6,563 nt of DNA, taken from IMG/VR virus record IMGVR_UViG_2534681697_000019, one strand, 5' to 3'. Within the stretch, counting starts at the first letter, position 1, and the number at the start of each line of letters is the position of its first letter. Under the pieces are notes generated by a model that was not told the DNA's origin, made no database searches, and saw nothing but the letters and a program-made list of their open reading frames with translations. Source of the DNA: a virus. Taxonomy: Duplodnaviria > Heunggongvirae > Uroviricota > Caudoviricetes. This document shows positions 1-6,563 of this stretch, one piece after another. A program made the position numbers and the translations under genes.

Positions 1-228
1 GGGAAGTTTGTTGCTTATGATTATGCAGCATGGCTAAACCCCGGATTTAAATATGCAGCCTATAAAGTCCTGGATGACTACTTCACCGGAGAACTTCAGC
101 ATCGCAACAGATTAAGTGCGCAGCTCAATATGAAGTGTCATGAGTTTGATCAGAAAAAAGATATGGCGAGCTTCTGTGGACAAGGGCTGGCGGCATGGCG
201 CTATACGAAGCCAGTGTTGGTCTCTTAG
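1..228 (+). CDS. 3' portion of a phage gene whose 5' end lies outside the window; possibly KilA-N/antirepressor-like
   Basis: Frame 1 is open from the window edge to TAG at 226-228 (GKFVAYDYAAWLNPGFKYAAYKVLDDYF...). The AAWLNPGF-type motif resembles the conserved A-WLSPEF region I recall from KilA-N domains. Family assignment is from memory only. Confidence 0.35.
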   Translation, partial: GKFVAYDYAAWLNPGFKYAAYKVLDDYFTGELQHRNRLSAQLNMKCHEFDQKKDMASFCGQGLAAWRYTKPVLVS

Positions 229-278
229 ATTCACACCCTGGCTAACCAGCTGCAGATAACGATCCCCGGGCTTCCGGG

Positions 279-536
279 ATGAGTGATCGTGTCATTGAAT
301 GCGCCTCCAGAGCGGGGCGCGACTTCTCAGAGTTCATGAAAGGCGAGAAGGGCATGATGGAAGCATTGGCCTCGGTGGATGAGTTTGGCGAGCAGCTGCG
401 CCTCAACGGCTGTGTCAATCATCACTTTGTTAGCTACATGATGCGGAACTCGATCATGCAGGCATTCATGGACATGGCAAAAGCCGAGAGGAAAGAAGAG
501 CGCCGGCGTAAGCGAGCGGAAGCAAAAGCGAAGTAG
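279..536 (+). CDS. hypothetical small phage protein (85 aa) with a strongly basic Lys/Arg-rich C-terminal tail
   Basis: ATG-initiated ORF with coding-like codon usage, lying between two same-strand phage genes. No family recognised. The preceding RBS is weak. Confidence 0.4.
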   Translation: MSDRVIECASRAGRDFSEFMKGEKGMMEALASVDEFGEQLRLNGCVNHHFVSYMMRNSIMQAFMDMAKAERKEERRRKRAEAKAK

Positions 537-637
537 CCATTACAAAGCCCATCTACGGGTGGGCTTGATAATGGCTTATACCCTACACGGGATAACTTAA
601 CTGATATCCCTTTTAACGGATAAACGGAGCACAAATA

Positions 638-1111
638 ATGGCAAAGCTCACCGACAAACAAGAGCTGTTTGCCCGTGAGTACCTGAAAGATCTGAACGGC
701 ACACAGGCAGCTATCAGGGCGGGCTACAGCGAGAAGACCGCCAATGAGCAGGCATCTCGATTATTAGCAAATGTTAATGTTCAAAAATTCGTTGCTGAAC
801 TTAAATCCGCCCGCGTTGAGCAGACGGGTATAGATGCCGCCTATGTTCTTCGTAGATTGGTTGAAATCGACCAGATGGATGTGCTCGACATTCTCCTGCA
901 AAACGGTGAGCTAAAGCCCATTAAAGACTGGCCTAAGGTATGGCGCACAACGCTATCAGGAATGGATGTCGTGGAGATGGTATCCGCAGATAGCGCCGCA
1001 CTTCTGAAGAAAATCAAATGGCCTGATAAGGTTAAAAACCTTGAGTTGCTTGGGCGTCATGTTTCTGTTCAGGCGTTTAAAGACAACGTCAAAAATGAAG
1101 TGACTGGCTGA
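638..1111 (+). CDS. phage terminase small subunit (Terminase_2/P27-like), native 3' end replaced by the IS
   Basis: GGAG about 7 nt upstream of ATG 638. The N-terminus MAKLTDKQELFAREYLKDLNGTQAAIRAGYSEKTA is the characteristic HTH start of Terminase_2-family small subunits. The stop TGA at 1109-1111 is the first three bases of the IS left inverted repeat, so the true C-terminus is missing. Confidence 0.75.
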   Translation: MAKLTDKQELFAREYLKDLNGTQAAIRAGYSEKTANEQASRLLANVNVQKFVAELKSARVEQTGIDAAYVLRRLVEIDQMDVLDILLQNGELKPIKDWPKVWRTTLSGMDVVEMVSADSAALLKKIKWPDKVKNLELLGRHVSVQAFKDNVKNEVTG

Positions 1112-1172
1112 GGTAGCCTGAGTTTAACGGACACTCCTTCCTGAAATAGAATGGCATCAGAAGGAGCTAATA

Positions 1173-1475
1173 ATGAGCAGAAAAACCCAACGTTACTCTA
1201 AAGAGTTCAAAGCCGAAGCTGTCAGAACGGTTCTTGAAAATCAACTTTCGATCAGTGAAGGCGCTTCCCGATTATCCCTTCCTGAAGGCACTTTAGGACA
1301 ATGGGTTACCGCCGCCAGAAAAGGGCTCGGTACTCCTGGTTCCCGCACGGTGGCTGAACTGGAATCTGAAATTCTGCAACTGCGTAAGGCGTTAAATGAA
1401 GCTCGCCTTGAGCGAGATATATTAAAAAAAGCAACAGCGTATTTTGCACAGGAGTCGCTGAAAAATACGCGTTAA
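1173..1475 (+). CDS. IS3-family transposase OrfA (HTH DNA-binding / leucine-zipper part), IS600-like
   Basis: 100-aa ORF with a GGAG RBS (AGAAGGAGCTAATA-ATG). Sequence is typical IS3-family OrfA with an HTH and a heptad Leu repeat (LESEILQLRKALNEARLERDIL) ending near the slippery site. Confidence 0.9.
   Translation: MSRKTQRYSKEFKAEAVRTVLENQLSISEGASRLSLPEGTLGQWVTAARKGLGTPGSRTVAELESEILQLRKALNEARLERDILKKATAYFAQESLKNTR
1424..1470 (+). other. programmed -1 ribosomal frameshift signal of the IS: A7 slippery run plus downstream stem-loop
   Basis: A_AAA_AAA at 1424-1430, with AAA AAA in the orfA zero frame, followed by G. Six nt downstream, a 9-bp stem GCGTATTTT (1437-1445) pairs with AAAATACGC (1462-1470) around a 16-nt loop. 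Confidence 0.6.
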
Positions 1476-1510
1476 TCGAACAATGGCGACAACAATTTCC
1501 CATTGAAGCG

Positions 1511-2329
1511 ATGTGTCAGGTATTTGGTGTATCCAGGAGCGGTTATTACAACTGGGTACAGCATGAACCCTCAGACAGAAAACAAAGTGATGAGCGGCTA
1601 AAACTGGAGATTAAGGTGGCACATATCCGCACTCGCGAAACATATGGAACCCGGCGGCTCCAGACGGAGCTGGCAGAGAATGGCATCATCGTTGGTCGTG
1701 ACCGACTGGCACGTCTTCGTAAGGAGCTAAGGCTACGCTGTAAGCAGAAACGCAAGTTCAGAGCGACTACGAACCCGAACCACAATCTGCCAGTTGCGCC
1801 AAATCTGCTGAACCAGACGTTCGCTCCTACAGCACCAAATCAGGTCTGGGTGGCGGACCTGACGTATGTTGCCACACAGGAGGGATGGTTGTACCTCGCT
1901 GGCATCAAAGATGTTTATACGTGCGAAATTGTCGGCTACGCCATGGGAGAGCGCATGACAAAAGAGCTGACAGGTAAAGCCCTGTTTATGGCGCTCAGGA
2001 GCCAGCGCCCACCTGCCGGGCTAATCCACCACTCTGATCGAGGTTCACAGTACTGCGCATACGATTACCGGGTCATACAGGAGCAGTTTGGTCTGAAAAC
2101 ATCAATGTCGCGTAAAGGTAACTGTTACGACAACGCTCCGATGGAAAGCTTCTGGGGAACGCTGAAAAATGAGAGCCTGAGCCACTATCGTTTTAATAAC
2201 CGGGATGAAGCCATCTCAGTAATACGGGAATACATTGAGATTTTCTACAATCGTCAGCGTCGTCACTCTCGTCTGGGGAATATCTCCCCGGCAGCCTTCA
2301 GGGAAAAATATCATCAGATGGCTGCTTAA
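1511..2329 (+). CDS. IS3-family transposase OrfB (DDE catalytic domain), expressed as an OrfAB fusion by -1 frameshifting
   Basis: 272-aa ORF in the -1 frame relative to orfA. That frame is open from the slippery site at 1427 through 1511 (…KSNSVFCTGVAEKYALIEQWRQQFPIEAMCQVFGVSRSGYY). DDE-type motifs are visible (WVADLTY, HHSDRGSQY, NAPMESFW). Confidence 0.9.
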   Translation: MCQVFGVSRSGYYNWVQHEPSDRKQSDERLKLEIKVAHIRTRETYGTRRLQTELAENGIIVGRDRLARLRKELRLRCKQKRKFRATTNPNHNLPVAPNLLNQTFAPTAPNQVWVADLTYVATQEGWLYLAGIKDVYTCEIVGYAMGERMTKELTGKALFMALRSQRPPAGLIHHSDRGSQYCAYDYRVIQEQFGLKTSMSRKGNCYDNAPMESFWGTLKNESLSHYRFNNRDEAISVIREYIEIFYNRQRRHSRLGNISPAAFREKYHQMAA

Positions 2330-2353
2330 AAAAAGAACAAATGGTAGTGTCCG

Positions 2354-2920
2354 CTATTGCCAGTACACCTCAGCTTCATCAATAATCAGAAGGGGGTTAA
2401 CACGGCCACTGGTTTCTTTACCACCACCCAGTTTTCTGCGAATGGCGCGGGTTACATTCCCCTTATTTCTTCCCGGATTATTAATTTCCAGCGCATATGC
2501 TATTTCAAGGAGGCATTCCGTTACGCTCGAATGTGCCGGAGCAAGAGTCACCATCCAGGCATTAGCTGTCCTGCGACAATATTCCCGGGCAGCAAAGGTT
2601 TTTCCGACACCCGGTACGCCAACAACGACACTGATAATCCCGAGTGAGCGCACTGTTTTAAACAGCTCATGCAAATCACAAAATGTCTGGGTCTTCACAA
2701 CACCAGGGGTACCTGACAAGTTCTGTCCCTTCTGCCAGACCTGATACCATTTCTGTAATTTGTCATGCATACCTTCGACATTACCGTTGTACTCTCCTTT
2801 ACGCAGAGCCGAGAGTGTTGCCGGAGACATTCCGGCTTCATCAGCAATATCTTCCTGAGACTTGTCGCCCTCGTTAATCAAAGCGTTAATAGTGTTGAAA
2901 ACATCATCAATATCAGTCAT
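2354..2920 (-). pseudogene. Mu B-like AAA+ transposition ATPase, truncated by the IS insertion (about 184 native residues plus 4 IS-derived codons)
   Basis: GAGG RBS 7 nt before ATG 2920. Walker A GVPGVGKT is present, and the product aligns with Mu B as I recall it (YNGNVEGMHDKLQKW against YNGDNERVSQMLQRW; ...LLIIDEA against ...LVIIDEAD). The reading frame enters the IS right end within the Walker B motif and stops at 2354-2356. No C-terminal continuation exists on the other side of the IS. Confidence 0.8.
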
Positions 2921-2964
2921 AGTATTTCCTCGGTTATTTCAAATCAGCTTTGTTTCCTTTATTT

Positions 2965-2993
2965 AACAGTCCGTTCCCGCGGACTGTTTTTTT
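2965..2993. terminator. hairpin in the A-B intergenic spacer; intrinsic-terminator-like on the + (antisense) strand
   Basis: 9-bp stem AACAGTCCG (2965-2973) pairs with CGGACTGTT (2980-2988) around a 6-nt loop, followed on the + strand by a T7 run (2987-2993). On the coding (-) strand the hairpin is followed only by the A/U-rich stretch UUAAAUAAAGG. Confidence 0.35.
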
Positions 2994-2995
2994 AT

Positions 2996-5080
2996 TCAGG
3001 CCAGCGGATCATCTTCTTCCTGCATGGCAAAAAGTTTTTGCATCCCCAGCCGGAAATCGCGTTCAAATTCTTCGTCATGCTCTTCTTCATATTCCGGTTG
3101 CTGAACTGCCACCACATTACCAACCGGGCGATAAACATTACTCAGCCAGGGTTCAGCCTGTTTGTGTTCCAGAATCTGAATACCTTCATCTTCAGCATCA
3201 CGAATTTTTTCCTCAGCGCGTTTGCGCATTCCTTTAATACGCTGCTGTTGTTTGTGATATTCAGCACTGACAGCAAAGGCTGCGCGTTTATTGCCGTTCC
3301 ATATCGCCTCACAGATAAAGCTGCCGTCCTTGCGACGTACCGTAATTCGCTCGGCGTCATGAATGTCATAACTGATAAGCACTTTGCGACCGTGTTCGTC
3401 ACGCAACTCCGGCGCGTAGTAAATATTGTTCAGCCACTGAATTTCGCAGCGTCTTACCGGTCGTTCCACCATTGGGCGGAACATGTCGCGCAGCTCAAGA
3501 TCACTCAGCCACTCAATTTCGGTGTCTTCTTCTGCCAGGCGTTTTTTTCTGAACTCTGCCGGGCTGTAATGCCGTCCGTTCGGTTTCATCGGCAGCTCAG
3601 AATGCGGGCGGTTGTTGTACCATTCCACGCCTTCACGAATAGCCTCAATAAGCTCCGCCCACGATGGCAGCTCGCGCATTGCCGCTTTCTGGCGGTCGTT
3701 CAGAGGCTTGTCCTGTTGCAGGGAGTTAAACGCTGAACGCAGATCACGGTTAAGTACACGCAACGATTCCCGGTCAGCACCCTTGCCAAAATAGGTGCGA
3801 TACCTCCTGGCTATACGCATCGGCAGTGTCCGGTTCAGGCGTTCAATAATGCCGCGTCCCTGTGGATTACCGGCAATACCGGTAGGGTGTTTAATCCCCA
3901 GGCGTGGCAGAATACCCACGACCTCTTTGTCCAGCATGTCAGCCGTTTCACCGGAACCGTTATCCGAGTAATACAGGAACGGTTTTCCGTGGTTGCGAAT
4001 GCCGTGCTGTATCGCACCGGCAACGGCGAACACGTTTTCGGCAAGGTCAAGACTCCAGCCAACAACAAACCGTGTTCCACCATCGATCACAAACGTGACT
4101 TCCGGTGAGAATGGACGCCCGTGGATCGGATGCGCACATTTCAGCTTCATACCGTGACCGTCACCAATCCAGACATAATTCACCGGCATAGCTGTCCAGT
4201 CGCGGCGGGTGAATCCTTCAAGCTGACGGTATTCACTGCCGGTAACGCGCCCTTTTTGTTTCACCACTTCCGGCAGTTTTTTCATGGCATACCGGACAAC
4301 ATCATAGGAAGGCATCACCTCCAGCATGTACGGTTCGTCCGCATGGCGACGCTGCCATTCTGCGACAAAATCCTCGTAGGCTTCTGACATGGGTCTGCCG
4401 TTCACCTAGCGATACTGCGCCAGAAATTCAGGCAGCCAGCTGATTTCTTCCGGTTTTATTTCGTCGCGTTTTCCCGGTGCCAGTAACAGCAGCCGTTCGG
4501 CGGCGTTCTGCGACTGGTTGTATTTCAGAACCCACTGGTAAAGTGGATCGCGGCTGATAGTACGATTAGCGCCACGTTTTGCATTGGCGTTAACTGCGGC
4601 CTGTTGCAGGCGCTCCGGCAGCTCACCTTTACGGGCTTTTTCAACAAGAAAGTTAATGGCTTTCAGTCGCCCGAGGTTACCGGCGCTTTCCAGCTTCAGC
4701 ACTTCCACCACCAGCGCAGCCCTTGCTTCAGATACCCGACGCTGGTTTTCGGTCAGCGCATTCAGGCGTTCTTCCATCAGTTGTGGCGAACCGCGATATG
4801 CTTCGATTGCCTGGACAGCATCAGGATTGCGTGTTTTTCTGGTAACAGCTTTCACTTCAGAAACATTGTTCTCTGTAGCCACCAACTGTGCCACATAGCG
4901 TTCACGCAGTGCCTTTTGAATAACAATAGGTAAAGAGTTTATTTCGCACTCAACAACACGTCCCTTAACCCCAGCTTTAAGACGTGTCTGCCATGACTCT
5001 TTTTTAGCTTTCTTATGCAAACCCGCAAGTGAACTAGGTAATCCACAAAATGAAGCTAATTCAGTCATTGGAACCCACAT
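2996..5080 (-). pseudogene. Mu A-like DDE transposase, interrupted by a single in-frame TAG at 4406-4408
   Basis: GGAGG RBS 4 nt before ATG 5080. N-terminus MWVPMTELASFCGLPSSLAGLHKKAKKESWQTRLKAGVKGR matches the Mu A enhancer-binding winged-helix domain as I recall it. DDE-like motifs follow the break (VWIGDGHG, YYSDNGSG, GRGIIERLN), and the C-terminal region resembles Mu A (HDAERITVRRKDGSFICEA). One frame is continuous except for the TAG (…LAQYR-TAG-VNGRPMSEAYEDF…), giving a 224-codon N-terminal segment (4409-5080) and a 469-codon C-terminal segment (2996-4405). Confidence 0.85.
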
Positions 5081-5315
5081 TTTTCCTCCGTGAGCGACGT
5101 TCATATCTGGTTGGCCAAATAACCTCTGGTTGAACTCCAATAGCTTGCGCAATAATCCCTTCTCCCTTTAAATAGGGGACTCGCAAAGTATTACCTAACG
5201 TTCTTGGCCTTAAATTATTTTCTCTCGATAAGCGAGACAAATTAGTACCACGCTTCTCAAGCTCAGCCTTGATATCAGCGGAATCCCAATCCTCACCTAA
5301 AATCACGATTAACAC
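5061..5315 (-). CDS. Ner-like DNA-binding regulator of a Mu-like phage
   Basis: Product aligns with Mu Ner as I recall it (EDWDSADIKAELEKRGTNLSRLSR...LKGEGIIAQAIGVQPEVIWPTRYE against RDWHRADVIAGLKKRKLSLSALSR...PKGEQIIANALETKPEVIWPSRYQ). There is no in-frame ATG; the start is GTG at 5315 or GTG at 5306. The gene's 3' end overlaps the transposase start by about 20 nt. Confidence 0.75.
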   Translation of the reverse strand: MLIVILGEDWDSADIKAELEKRGTNLSRLSRENNLRPRTLGNTLRVPYLKGEGIIAQAIGVQPEVIWPTRYERRSRRKNVGSND

Positions 5316-5446
5316 CCCACGCGCTTTCTATGGCAAACTCTATGACTCATGCGTGTAACTCACGAGAGTTACTCAACTGTGTGTGGTTGGAATATTAGAT
5401 ATTAACTAAGTAAATATCAACTGGTTAATTTCATTGGGAGGTTGAT
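5316..5446. promoter_or_regulatory. divergent early/repressor promoter-operator region of the Mu-like element
   Basis: On the - strand: -35 TTGATA (+ coordinates 5415-5420), 17-nt spacer, -10 TAATAT (5392-5397), directed toward ner-A-B. On the + strand: -35 TTGGAA (5387-5392), 18-nt spacer, -10 TAAATA (5411-5416), directed toward the repressor gene. Downstream of the leftward promoter lie three 13-bp-spaced TNACTCA repeats (5343, 5356, 5369) and an 18-bp palindrome GTAACTC-ACGA-GAGTTAC (5355-5372). Promoter and operator roles are inferred from position and pattern only. Confidence 0.45.
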
Positions 5447-5953
5447 ATGATCCAAGATCAAGAATGGGTGCCTGCTAGTGAACTCCTCGGTGTTGGCGGT
5501 TTACCCACATCCCTTGCAGGACTCCATAAGCGAGCAAGAAATGAGGGGTGGGAAAAACGTTCAGTTACAACACCCGGAGTTAGAGGAAGGGCCTTTGCGT
5601 ACCGATTGCAAGACTTGCCTGAACACGTCGCTGCAATTGTTAGCGGTCAGTTGCAAACAGCAACCAAACCATCAAACAAGGCCTCAAAAGCTAATGAGTT
5701 AATGAAAATAATGGATTCTCTAAGCGAACAAGAAAAAGAGATCGTGATCCATACGCTCAAACGAAAAGGTGTTGAAAAGTTGCTCGAATTTTGCAGCCAA
5801 GAAAACCAAGAGTTGATTAGTTTAACGGGTATTCGAAGATTAGCTGCTTTAAGCCTAAATAACCTGTCAGAACAAAAGGTTAGAGAGATTTTGGCGGGAA
5901 ATGAAGCTGAGGCCGATCTCATCCAACTAACCAACAAGGCAGTTAGCATATAA
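5447..5953 (+). CDS. Mu c-like phage repressor
   Basis: GGGAGG RBS 5 nt upstream of ATG 5447. The N-terminal domain EWVPASELLGVGGLPTSLAGLHKRARNEGWEKR...GVRGR is visibly paralogous to the transposase N-terminus encoded at 5080 (WVPMTELASFCGLPSSLAGLHKKAKKESWQTR...GVKGR), the arrangement known for Mu repressor and Mu A. It is transcribed divergently from ner-A-B, toward the prophage end. Confidence 0.8.
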   Translation: MIQDQEWVPASELLGVGGLPTSLAGLHKRARNEGWEKRSVTTPGVRGRAFAYRLQDLPEHVAAIVSGQLQTATKPSNKASKANELMKIMDSLSEQEKEIVIHTLKRKGVEKLLEFCSQENQELISLTGIRRLAALSLNNLSEQKVREILAGNEAEADLIQLTNKAVSI

Positions 5954-6047
5954 TCAGCTAGCTGTGCTTAACTTACTTGGTCCATTTCTACAACTTCTGA
6001 TAAGCTAGTTTTAAAAGCCTTTAAAAGGTCAAAATAAACAAGACGCT

Positions 6048-6180
6048 TTATCTTGAATGTTTTATTGTTCTGAACAAACTAAACGGCCCTTGCCCATTTT
6101 ATCTTGAATACAACTAGTAGCTAAGTTATTGAATCCAACCAAATCCCGTCTTTTTTAATCTCTTCCCGGTTATCTTGAAT
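6048..6180. repeat. three direct copies of TTATCTTGAAT: candidate transposase-binding sites at the Mu-like left end
   Basis: Exact 11-mers at 6048-6058, 6099-6109 and 6170-6180, with conserved flanks (cTTTATCTTGAATg, tTTTATCTTGAATa, gGTTATCTTGAATa), plus a degenerate copy GTTATTGAAT at 6125-6134. They lie 14-146 bp inside the inferred terminus, comparable to the L1-L3 layout of Mu attL. Confidence 0.55.
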
Positions 6181-6197
6181 AAATTACCTAGTCATAG

Positions 6198-6461
6198 GAT
6201 CTACATTTTCTCGCAAGTCGAATGGATACCTCAAAGCTGGATTTGATTCTGGTCGAAGGGTTTAAGCATGAAGAGATCGCAAAGATTGTGCTGTTTCGCG
6301 ATGGAGCCGGACATCGACCGGAAGAATTAGTGATAGACAGACATGTTATTGCTGTAGCCAGTGATGTGTCACTTAATCTTGATGTCGCGTTACTGGATAT
6401 TAATGATGTTGGGGGGCTGGCTGATTTTGTGGTGGAGTGGATGCAAAATCAGGACGGATAA
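6198..6461 (+). pseudogene. mobB: 3' fragment of molybdopterin-guanine dinucleotide biosynthesis protein B gene, 5' part removed by the prophage insertion
   Basis: Translation DLHFLASRMDTSKLDLILVEGFKHEEIAKIVLFRDGAGHRPEELVIDRHVIAVASDV...DFVVEWMQNQDG matches the C-terminal half of E. coli MobB as I recall it. The P-loop N-terminal half is absent, and homology stops at about 6198 where the Mu-like end begins. Stop codon TAA at 6459-6461. Confidence 0.8.
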
Positions 6462-6525
6462 GCAAGAGTAGGCTGGATCAGACGCAGCCAGCGTCGCATC
6501 CGACCTTTTTCTGCACCAGCGCAAA

Positions 6526-6551
6526 AAGGCCCAGTCTTCCGACTGGGCCTT
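6526..6551 (-). terminator. GC-rich hairpin intrinsic terminator, probably bidirectional
   Basis: 11-bp stem AAGGCCCAGTC (6526-6536) pairs with GACTGGGCCTT (6541-6551) around a 4-nt loop TTCC. On the - strand the stem is followed by TTTGCGC, giving a T5 run with the stem end. On the + strand it lies about 65 nt after the mobB stop and is followed by the less U-rich CTGCTTAATTT. Confidence 0.6.
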
Positions 6552-6563
6552 CTGCTTAATTTG

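What the first reader, a model, noticed from the sequence alone, without database searches (positions are those of the whole stretch)
5061..5953. Intact repressor-Ner-operator module retained in an immobilised prophage: possible superinfection-immunity cassette
B is truncated and A carries a stop, yet the c-like repressor, the Ner-like gene, the divergent promoters and the operator repeats all look intact with good RBSs. The repressor and transposase N-terminal domains are clearly paralogous in the sequence itself. In Mu, repressor and transposase compete for the same operator/enhancer; by analogy this remnant could still confer repressor-based immunity to related Mu-like phages without being able to transpose.
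Basis: inference. Interest (0 to 1): 0.45.

Follow-up and report, generated by a model that had tools for sequence, protein, structure and literature searches.

The report
Decaying Mu-like prophage immunity region
This is the left-end control region (repressor, operator, Ner) of a dead Mu-like prophage in a Shigella boydii-type chromosome; both genes are intact, but 85 bp of the control DNA between them is missing, so it looks like ordinary prophage decay, not a preserved immunity device.

Summary
The genes are real. 5447-5953(+) encodes a Mu c-type repressor and 5061-5315(-) a Ner homologue. The transposase A carries a CAG>TAG stop, and B is cut by IS600. The repressor and the transposase N-terminus are paralogous (48% over 52 aa).

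The claim that the promoters and operators are intact fails. The c-ner spacer is 131 bp in the window and in one near-identical S. boydii assembly. In all 20 other copies examined it is 214-223 bp, including intact E. coli prophages. The missing 85 bp lies between two direct TGGTTAATTTC repeats. The loss removed:
- two of four conserved GTTAATWTC half-sites;
- the AT-rich stretch between the two site clusters;
- the best repressor-directed promoter candidates.

The early promoter (TTGATA-17-TAATAT) survives.

There is no sign of selection on the repressor. dN/dS against an intact relative is similar for c (0.15), A (0.06) and B (0.10). The Shigella copies are too alike to test. A sister S. boydii lineage, at what appears to be the same mobB/rrnA/hemG locus, has lost the repressor's DNA-binding domain.

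Verdict: an ordinary decaying prophage remnant. Immunity in trans is not excluded, but it has no support and one argument against it. Low interest.

The parts
5447..5953 (+). c-type (Mu Rep-like) repressor gene, 168 aa, reading frame intact
   Evidence: Pfam HTH_Tnp_Mu_1 E 5.6e-9. phrog_7148 E 8e-64. 1G4D E 1e-5 and 1TNS E 3e-5. Same length as in intact prophages. The exact protein is named in Shigella boydii.
5316..5446 (.). Shortened c-ner control region: 131 bp instead of 214-223 bp
   Evidence: Alignments A1 and A2. Census of 22 copies (window included): only the window and L005 are short.
5422..5432 (+). TGGTTAATTTC: the single hybrid copy left after the 85-bp deletion between two direct copies (deletion junction)
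   Evidence: In L003 the two copies are at 9891-9901 and 9976-9986, 85 bp apart. Alignment A1.
5392..5420 (-). Early-promoter (Pe) candidate TTGATA-17-TAATAT, reading into ner-A-B
   Evidence: Consensus scan. PWM score 12.3, conserved in all five relatives scanned; only 5 sites score 10 or more in 31.8 kb.
5398..5406 (-). Half-site GTTAATATC, between the -10 and -35 of Pe (candidate repressor / transposase I-alpha site)
   Evidence: Motif search: 2 hits in the window against 0.11 expected. All 4 hits in L001 fall in the spacer, 0.2 expected. Conserved in relatives with 56-69% identical repressors.
5424..5432 (+). Half-site GTTAATTTC, just upstream of the Pe -35; inverted partner of 5398-5406
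   Evidence: (I2).
5355..5372 (.). Palindrome GTAACTC-ACGA-GAGTTAC downstream of the predicted Pe start; candidate Ner site (low confidence)
   Evidence: Read from the sequence. The right arm GAGTTACTCA is invariant in relatives; the left arm varies.
5061..5315 (-). ner-like gene, 84 aa from the GTG at 5315 (81 aa if the GTG at 5306 is used); overlaps the start of A
   Evidence: Pfam HTH_35 E 9e-27. 1NEQ E 6e-15. 100% identical protein in RM9088 and in all Shigella copies.
4406..5080 (-). MuA-like transposase, N-terminal 224 codons, ending in an amber stop at 4406-4408
   Evidence: HTH_Tnp_Mu_1 E 8e-12. CAG>TAG against L001, L002 and L003. tblastn shows one stop in a 694-aa alignment.
2996..4405 (-). 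Rest of the transposase gene (catalytic core and C-terminal domain), in frame after the stop
   Evidence: Mu-transpos_C E 1.4e-18. phrog_310 E 6.5e-149.
2354..2920 (-). MuB-like ATPase gene, truncated at about residue 184 of 316-317 by IS600
   Evidence: AAA_22. phrog_296. tblastn covers residues 1-184 of 317. Same 188-aa product annotated in S. boydii ATCC 9905.
1109..2372 (+). IS600 (IS3 family), which cuts off the prophage after B'
   Evidence: 99-100% identical to IS600 copies annotated in E. coli genomes and in the loci. Pfam HTH_Tnp_1 and rve.
5954..6196 (.). Prophage left end (attL) with three TTATCTTGAAT repeats at 6047, 6098 and 6169; candidate transposase end-binding sites L3, L2, L1
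   Evidence: Repeat family D1. Similarity to independent insertions stops at 6196-6200.
6197..6461 (+). 3' part of host gene mobB, interrupted by the prophage
   Evidence: Pfam MobB, profile positions 89-133 of 133.

Best explanation
The region is the lysis-lysogeny control module of a Mu-like transposable prophage: repressor c, then the operator/enhancer, then ner-A-B. The immunity type has not been studied experimentally, and the phage is not Mu or SfMu. The prophage sits in mobB of a Shigella boydii-type chromosome and has been reduced to about 3.8 kb.

In intact relatives, the 214-223-bp spacer holds two clusters of inverted GTTAATWTC half-sites. One cluster brackets the early promoter Pe. 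The other overlaps the best candidate promoter for c. An AT-rich stretch separates them. This is the same layout as the Mu O1-O3/enhancer region.

In the window, slippage or recombination between two direct 11-bp copies of a half-site deleted 85 bp. The c-proximal cluster, the AT-rich stretch and the candidate c promoter are gone. Pe and its own pair of sites remain.

Shown: the deletion, what it removed, and the intact reading frames.

Inferred:
- The half-sites are the repressor / transposase I-alpha sites.
- c is now poorly transcribed or not transcribed.
- The remnant therefore most likely sits in a Pe-on state autoregulated by Ner, making Ner and a 224-aa transposase fragment. It does not sit in a repressor-maintained immune state.
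- c and ner are intact because the decay is recent, not because they are selected.
For: - 85-bp deletion: seen only in the window and L005, against 20 other copies from several insertion sites and from intact prophages.
- Its end points are two direct TGGTTAATTTC copies.
- The four half-sites are the only matches in 15.9 kb of the intact RM9088 prophage locus, 0.2 expected. They are conserved in phages whose repressors are only 56-69% identical, and the DNA-binding domains of those repressors are highly conserved.
- Pe scores 12.3 in every relative.
- The best c-directed sites (TTGAAA-16-GATATT, 9.4; TTGATA-17-GAAATT, 9.3) lie inside the deleted segment in L003, L001 and L013.
- The best c-directed sites left in the window score 7.2 or less. 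Sites scoring 7 or more occur about once per 560 bp. Transcription from them would start in or after the ribosome-binding site or the ATG.
- No plus-strand site scoring 8 or more lies within 2.5 kb upstream of c.
- Other decay in the same copy: amber codon in A, B cut by IS600.
- Sister S. boydii genomes at what appears to be the same locus lost c residues 1-53 together with ner, A and B.
- dN/dS is similar for c, A and B.
- In Mu, Pc and Pe are divergent, and the enhancer consists of two clusters of MuA sites separated by an IHF site and overlapping O1-O3 (PMC3820752, PMC3145075).
Against: - Promoter prediction from consensus is weak evidence. Repressor promoters are often poor matches.
- In the two Salmonella relatives the candidate c promoter is not clearly conserved, so the true promoter could lie elsewhere and survive.
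- The repressor acts in trans, so loss of sites in cis does not by itself abolish immunity.
- No binding site was verified experimentally.
- c and ner carry no inactivating mutation in any of the copies that still have them. This is also what recent decay predicts, and part of the sample was collected by exact identity to c or Ner.
Confidence: 0.6

Rival explanations
1. One reading: the remnant is a working superinfection-immunity cassette. The c gene is still transcribed from an unrecognised or weak promoter. The repressor acts in trans on the operators of incoming phages of the same immunity type and blocks their early transcription and transposition.
For: - The c reading frame and its strong ribosome-binding site are intact.
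- The remaining pair of half-sites still brackets Pe.
- Phages of this immunity type are active in E. coli at many insertion sites.
- c-ner is retained in remnants at three different loci: mobB, zraP/zraS and metA/aceB.
Against: - The best candidate c promoters and half of the conserved sites are deleted.
- No c-directed promoter-like site above background remains.
- There is no differential purifying selection and no power among the Shigella copies.
- A sister lineage lost the repressor's DNA-binding domain.
- The left end is retained in remnants simply because IS-mediated deletions started inside the prophage.
Confidence: 0.22
2. The remnant is fixed in the Ner state and interferes by another route. 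Pe drives Ner and a 224-aa transposase fragment that carries the enhancer-binding and end-binding domains but no catalytic core. These either titrate the sites of an incoming Mu-like phage (a dominant-negative transposase fragment), or Ner acts as a host regulator in the way EnrR does.
For: - Pe is intact and strong.
- ner is intact.
- The A fragment ends at codon 225, after the DNA-binding domains.
- Ner is as similar to the H-NS antagonist EnrR (7F9H, E 3.5e-15) as to Mu Ner (PMC9023278 listed).
Against: - Pure inference; no expression or binding data.
- The Ner protein is 100% identical to that of intact phages, so nothing marks it as domesticated.
- The amber codon is confined to one small S. 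boydii lineage (5 contigs).
Confidence: 0.08
3. The short spacer is an assembly or sequencing artefact: two repeats collapsed.
For: The deletion lies between direct repeats.
Against: - The repeats are only 11 bp, far shorter than a read.
- The same junction is present in the complete assembly CP026875.1 (L005), which differs from the window upstream of IS600 (an IS66 insertion and different flanking genes). That makes at least two independent records.
Confidence: 0.02

Closest known systems
Bacteriophage Mu immunity/early control region (c/Rep, operators O1-O3 overlapping the transpositional enhancer, Pe and Pc, ner)
   Same: - Gene order and orientation: c diverges from ner-A-B, next to the left end.
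- The repressor DNA-binding domain is paralogous to the transposase I-alpha domain.
- Ner homologue present.
- A spacer of about 220 bp with two clusters of sites separated by an AT-rich stretch in intact relatives, compared with the description in PMC3145075.
- Three repeated end sites in attL.
   Different: - Low sequence identity to Mu itself. Only the DNA-binding domain aligns (E 1e-5). No DNA match to Mu or SfMu in the phage collection.
- The candidate sites (GTTAATWTC inverted pairs) are not the Mu operator sequence.
- The window copy has lost one of the two clusters and the candidate c promoter.
Intact Mu-like prophage of E. coli RM9088 (NZ_CP042298.1, inserted next to nrfA) and its relatives at other sites
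   Same: Same immunity type. c is 95% and Ner 100% identical at protein level; A is 97.6%. The attL end is the same.
   Different: That prophage has a 223-bp spacer with all four half-sites, a full-length A (694 aa) and a full-length B (317 aa).
SfMu, the described Mu-like phage of Shigella flexneri (PMC4406740)
   Same: A transposable phage in Shigella. The paper also reports remnants in several serotypes.
   Different: Most SfMu proteins (46 of 55) are more than 90% identical to Mu, and its c and Ner resemble those of D108. The window element gives no DNA match to Mu-type phages. Its best phage matches are Yersinia vB_YpM_5/6 (90%, A gene only) and Mu-like inserts in Stx phages.
Cryptic-prophage repressors that still give immunity (a general class of domesticated prophage functions, reviewed in PMC8987985)
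   Same: A repressor gene with an intact reading frame in a prophage that can no longer move.
   Different: The defining signs of domestication were not found here: no preferential conservation, and no intact expression signals.

Membership tests
Mu c/Rep-type repressor | N-terminal winged-helix DNA-binding domain homologous to the MuA I-alpha domain | tested here: met
   Pfam HTH_Tnp_Mu_1 at 36.9 bits against a 23.3 cut-off. 1G4D E 1e-5 and 1TNS E 3e-5. 48% identity to the element's own transposase N-terminus.
Mu c/Rep-type repressor | Outermost gene at the left end, transcribed divergently from ner-A-B | tested here: met
   ORF map. The same order is annotated in intact relatives.
Mu c/Rep-type repressor | Binds operators that overlap the early promoter and the enhancer | not testable with these tools
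   Only candidate sites are available: conserved GTTAATWTC half-sites that bracket Pe.
Ner (HTH_35) early regulator | Ner-type DNA-binding fold, first gene of the early operon, just before A | tested here: met
   HTH_35 at 93.3 bits against a cut-off of 25. 1NEQ E 6e-15. The ORF ends 20 nt inside the start of A.
Mu-type operator/enhancer region | Two clusters of sites separated by a bendable spacer, lying between c and ner | tested here: not met
   Present in 20 other copies (4 half-sites, 214-223 bp). The window has one cluster in 131 bp.
Mu-type operator/enhancer region | Divergent promoters for the early operon and for c | tested here: inconclusive
   Pe is found. No c-directed site above background remains in the window, and the candidates seen in relatives lie in the deleted 85 bp. 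This is prediction only.
Functional Mu-like transposable prophage | Intact transposase A, intact B, and both ends | tested here: not met
   Amber codon at codon 225 of A. B is truncated by IS600. Nothing of the prophage lies beyond IS600 in the window.
Domesticated immunity cassette | Stronger purifying selection on, or preferential retention of, the repressor compared with the rest of the remnant | tested here: not met
   dN/dS is 0.15 for c, 0.06 for A and 0.10 for B'. The Shigella copies differ by 0-1 substitutions in c, so there is no power. c is truncated in sister genomes L018-L021.
Domesticated immunity cassette | Repressor expressed, and protection against phages of the same immunity type | not testable with these tools
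   Needs transcript mapping and phage challenge.

The most novel reading that the evidence does not exclude
The remnant is not inert. After losing the repressor promoter, it constitutively makes Ner and a 224-aa catalytically dead transposase fragment from the surviving early promoter. These two DNA-binding proteins interfere with incoming Mu-like phages of this group by occupying their enhancer and ends. This would be a transposase-fragment type of immunity rather than repressor immunity. Alternatively, the repressor is still made and works with a minimal one-cluster operator.
Probability: 0.07. Interest if true: 0.45.

Novelty: new member of a known kind. Interest (0 to 1): 0.15.

Why it matters
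It matters little beyond bookkeeping. The case shows that intact reading frames in a prophage remnant do not make an intact module: here the non-coding control DNA is the damaged part. The comparison also gives a testable map of the control region for an unstudied Mu-like immunity group that is active in E. coli and Salmonella and present as remnants in Shigella. The map has four GTTAATWTC half-sites in two inverted pairs, a conserved Pe and a candidate Pc. If the remnant did protect S. boydii from related phages, that would be one more example of a cryptic prophage serving defence, which is a known theme.

Tried and rejected
1. SfMu or Mu identity: rejected. There is no DNA match to Mu-type phages, and SfMu is more than 90% Mu-like.

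2. Computed against intact relatives, all genes are equally constrained, which reflects phage history. Among the Shigella copies there are 0-1 substitutions, so there is no power.

3. A census of c integrity from the exact-protein look-up is biased, because all hits are intact by construction. It was repeated with Ner as bait and with the truncated variant P0023.

4. A Mu-style c promoter on the ner side of Pe: no plus-strand site above background there in any relative.

5. Read-through into c from upstream: the nearest plus-strand site scoring 8 or more is about 2.5 kb away.

6. Scans of genome contigs and metagenome contigs for the deletion junction found nothing. The junction is known only from the window and L005.

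7. IHF site: a WATCAANNNNTTR match at 5415-5427 overlaps the Pe -35, but it is not conserved in the Salmonella relatives. It was given no weight.

8. The palindrome at 5355-5372 as a Ner site: only its right arm is conserved. Kept as a low-confidence candidate.
Full report
**What is in the window.**

The ORF map, Pfam and PHROGs give this layout:
- lambdoid phage genes, including a small terminase subunit (638-1111);
- IS600 (about 1109-2372);
- a MuB-like ATPase gene cut at about residue 184-188 (2354-2920, minus strand);
- a MuA-like transposase gene interrupted by one in-frame stop (2996-4405 and 4406-5080, minus strand);
- a Ner-like gene (5061-5315, minus strand);
- a 131-bp spacer (5316-5446);
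- a repressor gene (5447-5953, plus strand);
- a 243-bp prophage left end with three TTATCTTGAAT repeats;
- the 3' part of the host gene mobB, from about 6197.

No complete E. coli genome holds the whole window. The truncated B product is annotated in Shigella boydii ATCC 9905, and the exact repressor is named in S. boydii. The S. boydii-type assembly CP026875.1 (L005) is 99.98% identical to window 1212-6563.

**Checking the observation.**

- The repressor matches the Mu DNA-binding domain family, the solved Mu repressor domain (1G4D) and the MuA I-alpha domain (1TNS).
- It is 48% identical over 52 residues to the N-terminus of the element's own transposase, E 4e-14. Seventeen columns are invariant across the repressors and transposases of four related phages.
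- Ner matches HTH_35 and solved Mu Ner.
- The stop in A is a single CAG>TAG change at 4406-4408.
- B is cut by IS600.
- A strong early-promoter-like site, TTGATA-17-TAATAT, reads towards ner.

**The control region is not intact.**

I aligned the spacer with six other Shigella copies and with the intact E. coli RM9088 prophage. RM9088 is 95% identical in DNA and is the only one of 5426 complete E. coli genomes with this immunity region. The window and L005 lack 85 bp.

A census of 22 copies (the window included) was collected with the repressor and with Ner as baits. The copies come from several insertion sites and include intact prophages. The result:
- 214-223 bp and four GTTAATWTC half-sites in 20 copies;
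- 131 bp and two half-sites in the window and L005 only.

The deletion lies between two direct copies of TGGTTAATTTC, 85 bp apart, which is the signature of slippage or short-homology recombination.

**What the deleted DNA is.**

In the intact RM9088 locus, the four half-sites are the only matches to GTTAATWTC in 15.9 kb, against 0.2 expected. They form two inverted pairs:
- one pair brackets the -10 and -35 of the early promoter;
- the other pair overlaps the only plus-strand sigma-70-like site in the spacer, TTGAAA-16-GATATT.

An alignment with phages whose repressors are only 56-69% identical (one E. coli copy, two Salmonella copies) shows what is conserved: the four half-sites, the early-promoter hexamers, and a T-rich block TTATTTTTGAWATTAAC. 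The DNA between them has diverged. The repressor DNA-binding domains of these phages are much better conserved than the rest of the protein. That fits the half-sites being their targets.

The layout matches what is described for Mu. The enhancer is two clusters of MuA sites separated by an IHF site and overlaps the O1-O3 operators (PMC3145075). Pc and Pe are divergent promoters (PMC3820752).

**Promoter scoring.**

A position-weight scan gives:
- 12.3 for the early promoter in every relative;
- 9.3-9.4 for the best repressor-directed sites in L003 and L001, and 8.4 in L013, all inside the segment missing from the window.

In the window, the best repressor-directed sites score 7.2 or less. Sites scoring 7 or more occur about once per 560 bp. 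Transcription from those sites would start within or after the ribosome-binding site or the start codon. No plus-strand site scoring 8 or more lies within 2.5 kb upstream.

The deletion therefore removed the c-proximal site cluster, the spacer between the clusters, and the likely repressor promoter. This last step is a prediction. In the two Salmonella relatives the candidate promoter is not clearly conserved.

**Is the module selectively retained?**

Against RM9088, dN/dS is 0.15 for c, 0 for ner, 0.06 for A and 0.10 for the B remnant. All the genes carry the same history of purifying selection as parts of a working phage, so the damage to A and B is recent. Among the Shigella copies, c and ner differ by 0-1 substitutions, B' by 1-2, and attL by 0-1. 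There is no power to detect selection after immobilisation.

The state of each copy:

| Copies | c | ner | Spacer | A | B |
|---|---|---|---|---|---|
| Window, L005 | intact | intact | 85 bp deleted | amber stop | cut by IS600 |
| L003 | intact | intact | full | intact | frameshifted |
| L007 | intact | intact | full | 25-aa in-frame deletion | frameshifted |
| L004, L006, L010 | intact | intact | full | 25-aa in-frame deletion | intact |
| L008, L009 | intact | intact | full | intact | intact |
| L018-L020 (S. boydii; flanked by the rRNA gap and hemG, as at the mobB locus) | lost N-terminal DNA-binding domain | lost | lost | lost | lost |

L021 carries the same truncated c on a 4.4-kb contig that shows no host flank. 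In L018-L021, one deletion runs from inside c to the baseplate gene. The repressor is therefore not protected from loss. In the other remnants it survives together with A and B, as expected when IS-mediated deletions start inside the prophage and the left end simply remains.

**Most likely state and mechanism.**

The module works like the Mu switch, and by the tested features its proteins belong to the Mu c and Ner families. In this copy, the surviving parts are Pe with its own pair of half-sites, ner, and the first 224 codons of A. The c gene has a strong ribosome-binding site but no recognisable promoter.

My best reading, at confidence 0.6, is ordinary decay. The remnant cannot transpose. 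It probably makes little or no repressor, and it probably sits in a Pe-on state limited by Ner.

The repressor acts in trans, and phages of this immunity type are active in E. coli, with at least six insertion sites carrying intact c-ner-A (B only partly fetched in five). But it now depends on an unrecognised promoter.

A more speculative reading (0.08) is interference by Ner and the catalytically dead transposase fragment. Ner is as similar to the H-NS antagonist EnrR (7F9H) as to Mu Ner. It is also 100% identical to the Ner of intact phages, so nothing marks it as domesticated.

An assembly artefact is unlikely. The repeats are only 11 bp, and the junction occurs in two records that differ upstream.

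**Comparison with what is known, and novelty.**

The element is not SfMu. Most SfMu proteins (46 of 55) are more than 90% identical to Mu (PMC4406740), whereas this element gives no DNA match to Mu-type phages. Its transposase gene is 90% identical to Yersinia phages vB_YpM_5/6.

It is a new, uncharacterised member of the Mu-like immunity modules. The window holds a damaged copy of it. The useful by-product is a predicted site map for this immunity group.

Interest is low (0.15). The finding is a decaying prophage in a genome full of insertion sequences. The feature that made it look special, an intact control region, is not there.

Noticed in passing
window 4361-4683: Within A, 27-29 of the substitutions against the other Shigella copies cluster in about 320 bp (about 5-9% divergence), while the rest of the remnant differs by 0-2 per gene. 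Over 2370-4916 the window is 99.5% identical to the prophage of E. coli FDAARGOS_943, which has a different immunity region. The remnant is therefore a mosaic: recombination or gene conversion between Mu-like prophages.
   Followed up: partly
window 1-2372 vs L005 1-6900: In the window, IS600 joins the Mu remnant to lambdoid genes (terS 638-1111). In the otherwise identical L005, the DNA beyond IS600 is Mu baseplate/tail genes, and an IS66 element sits inside IS600. This points to an IS600-mediated rearrangement that differs between close relatives.
   Followed up: no
L018-L021 (S. boydii; L018-L020 flanked by the rRNA gap and hemG, as at the mobB locus): One deletion fuses the 3' two-thirds of c (a 115-aa product without the DNA-binding domain) to the Mu gp47-like baseplate gene. 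Tail-fibre genes and mom are kept. This is the opposite pattern of retention from the window.
   Followed up: partly
L004, L006, L007, L010 (corresponds to window about 3447-3504): A 75-bp in-frame deletion (25 aa) in the C-terminal part of the transposase is shared by four Shigella genomes. L003 and L007 carry a frameshifted B.
   Followed up: no
L008, L011, L012 (zraP/zraS-purD locus); L029, L031 (metA-aceB locus): The same immunity region occurs in remnants at two further chromosomal sites: an identical repressor protein at zraP/zraS, and a c gene 99.2% identical in DNA at metA/aceB. This phage type therefore inserted repeatedly in Shigella/E. coli lineages.
   Followed up: partly
window 5415-5427: TATCAACTGGTTA matches the IHF core consensus WATCAANNNNTTR and overlaps the -35 of the early promoter. 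It is conserved in the E. coli and Shigella copies but not in the Salmonella relatives.
   Followed up: partly
window 5064-5315: The Ner-like protein is as similar to EnrR (7F9H), a genomic-island protein that counteracts H-NS, as it is to Mu Ner (E 3.5e-15 against 6e-15).
   Followed up: no
L009, at the position of window 5315: A one-base insertion (an extra C) at the annotated GTG start of ner lengthens the called ORF to 96 aa. The true Ner start may be the GTG at 5306, which has a better ribosome-binding site.
   Followed up: no
window 279-536: An 85-aa ORF in the lambdoid part has no Pfam match.
   Followed up: no
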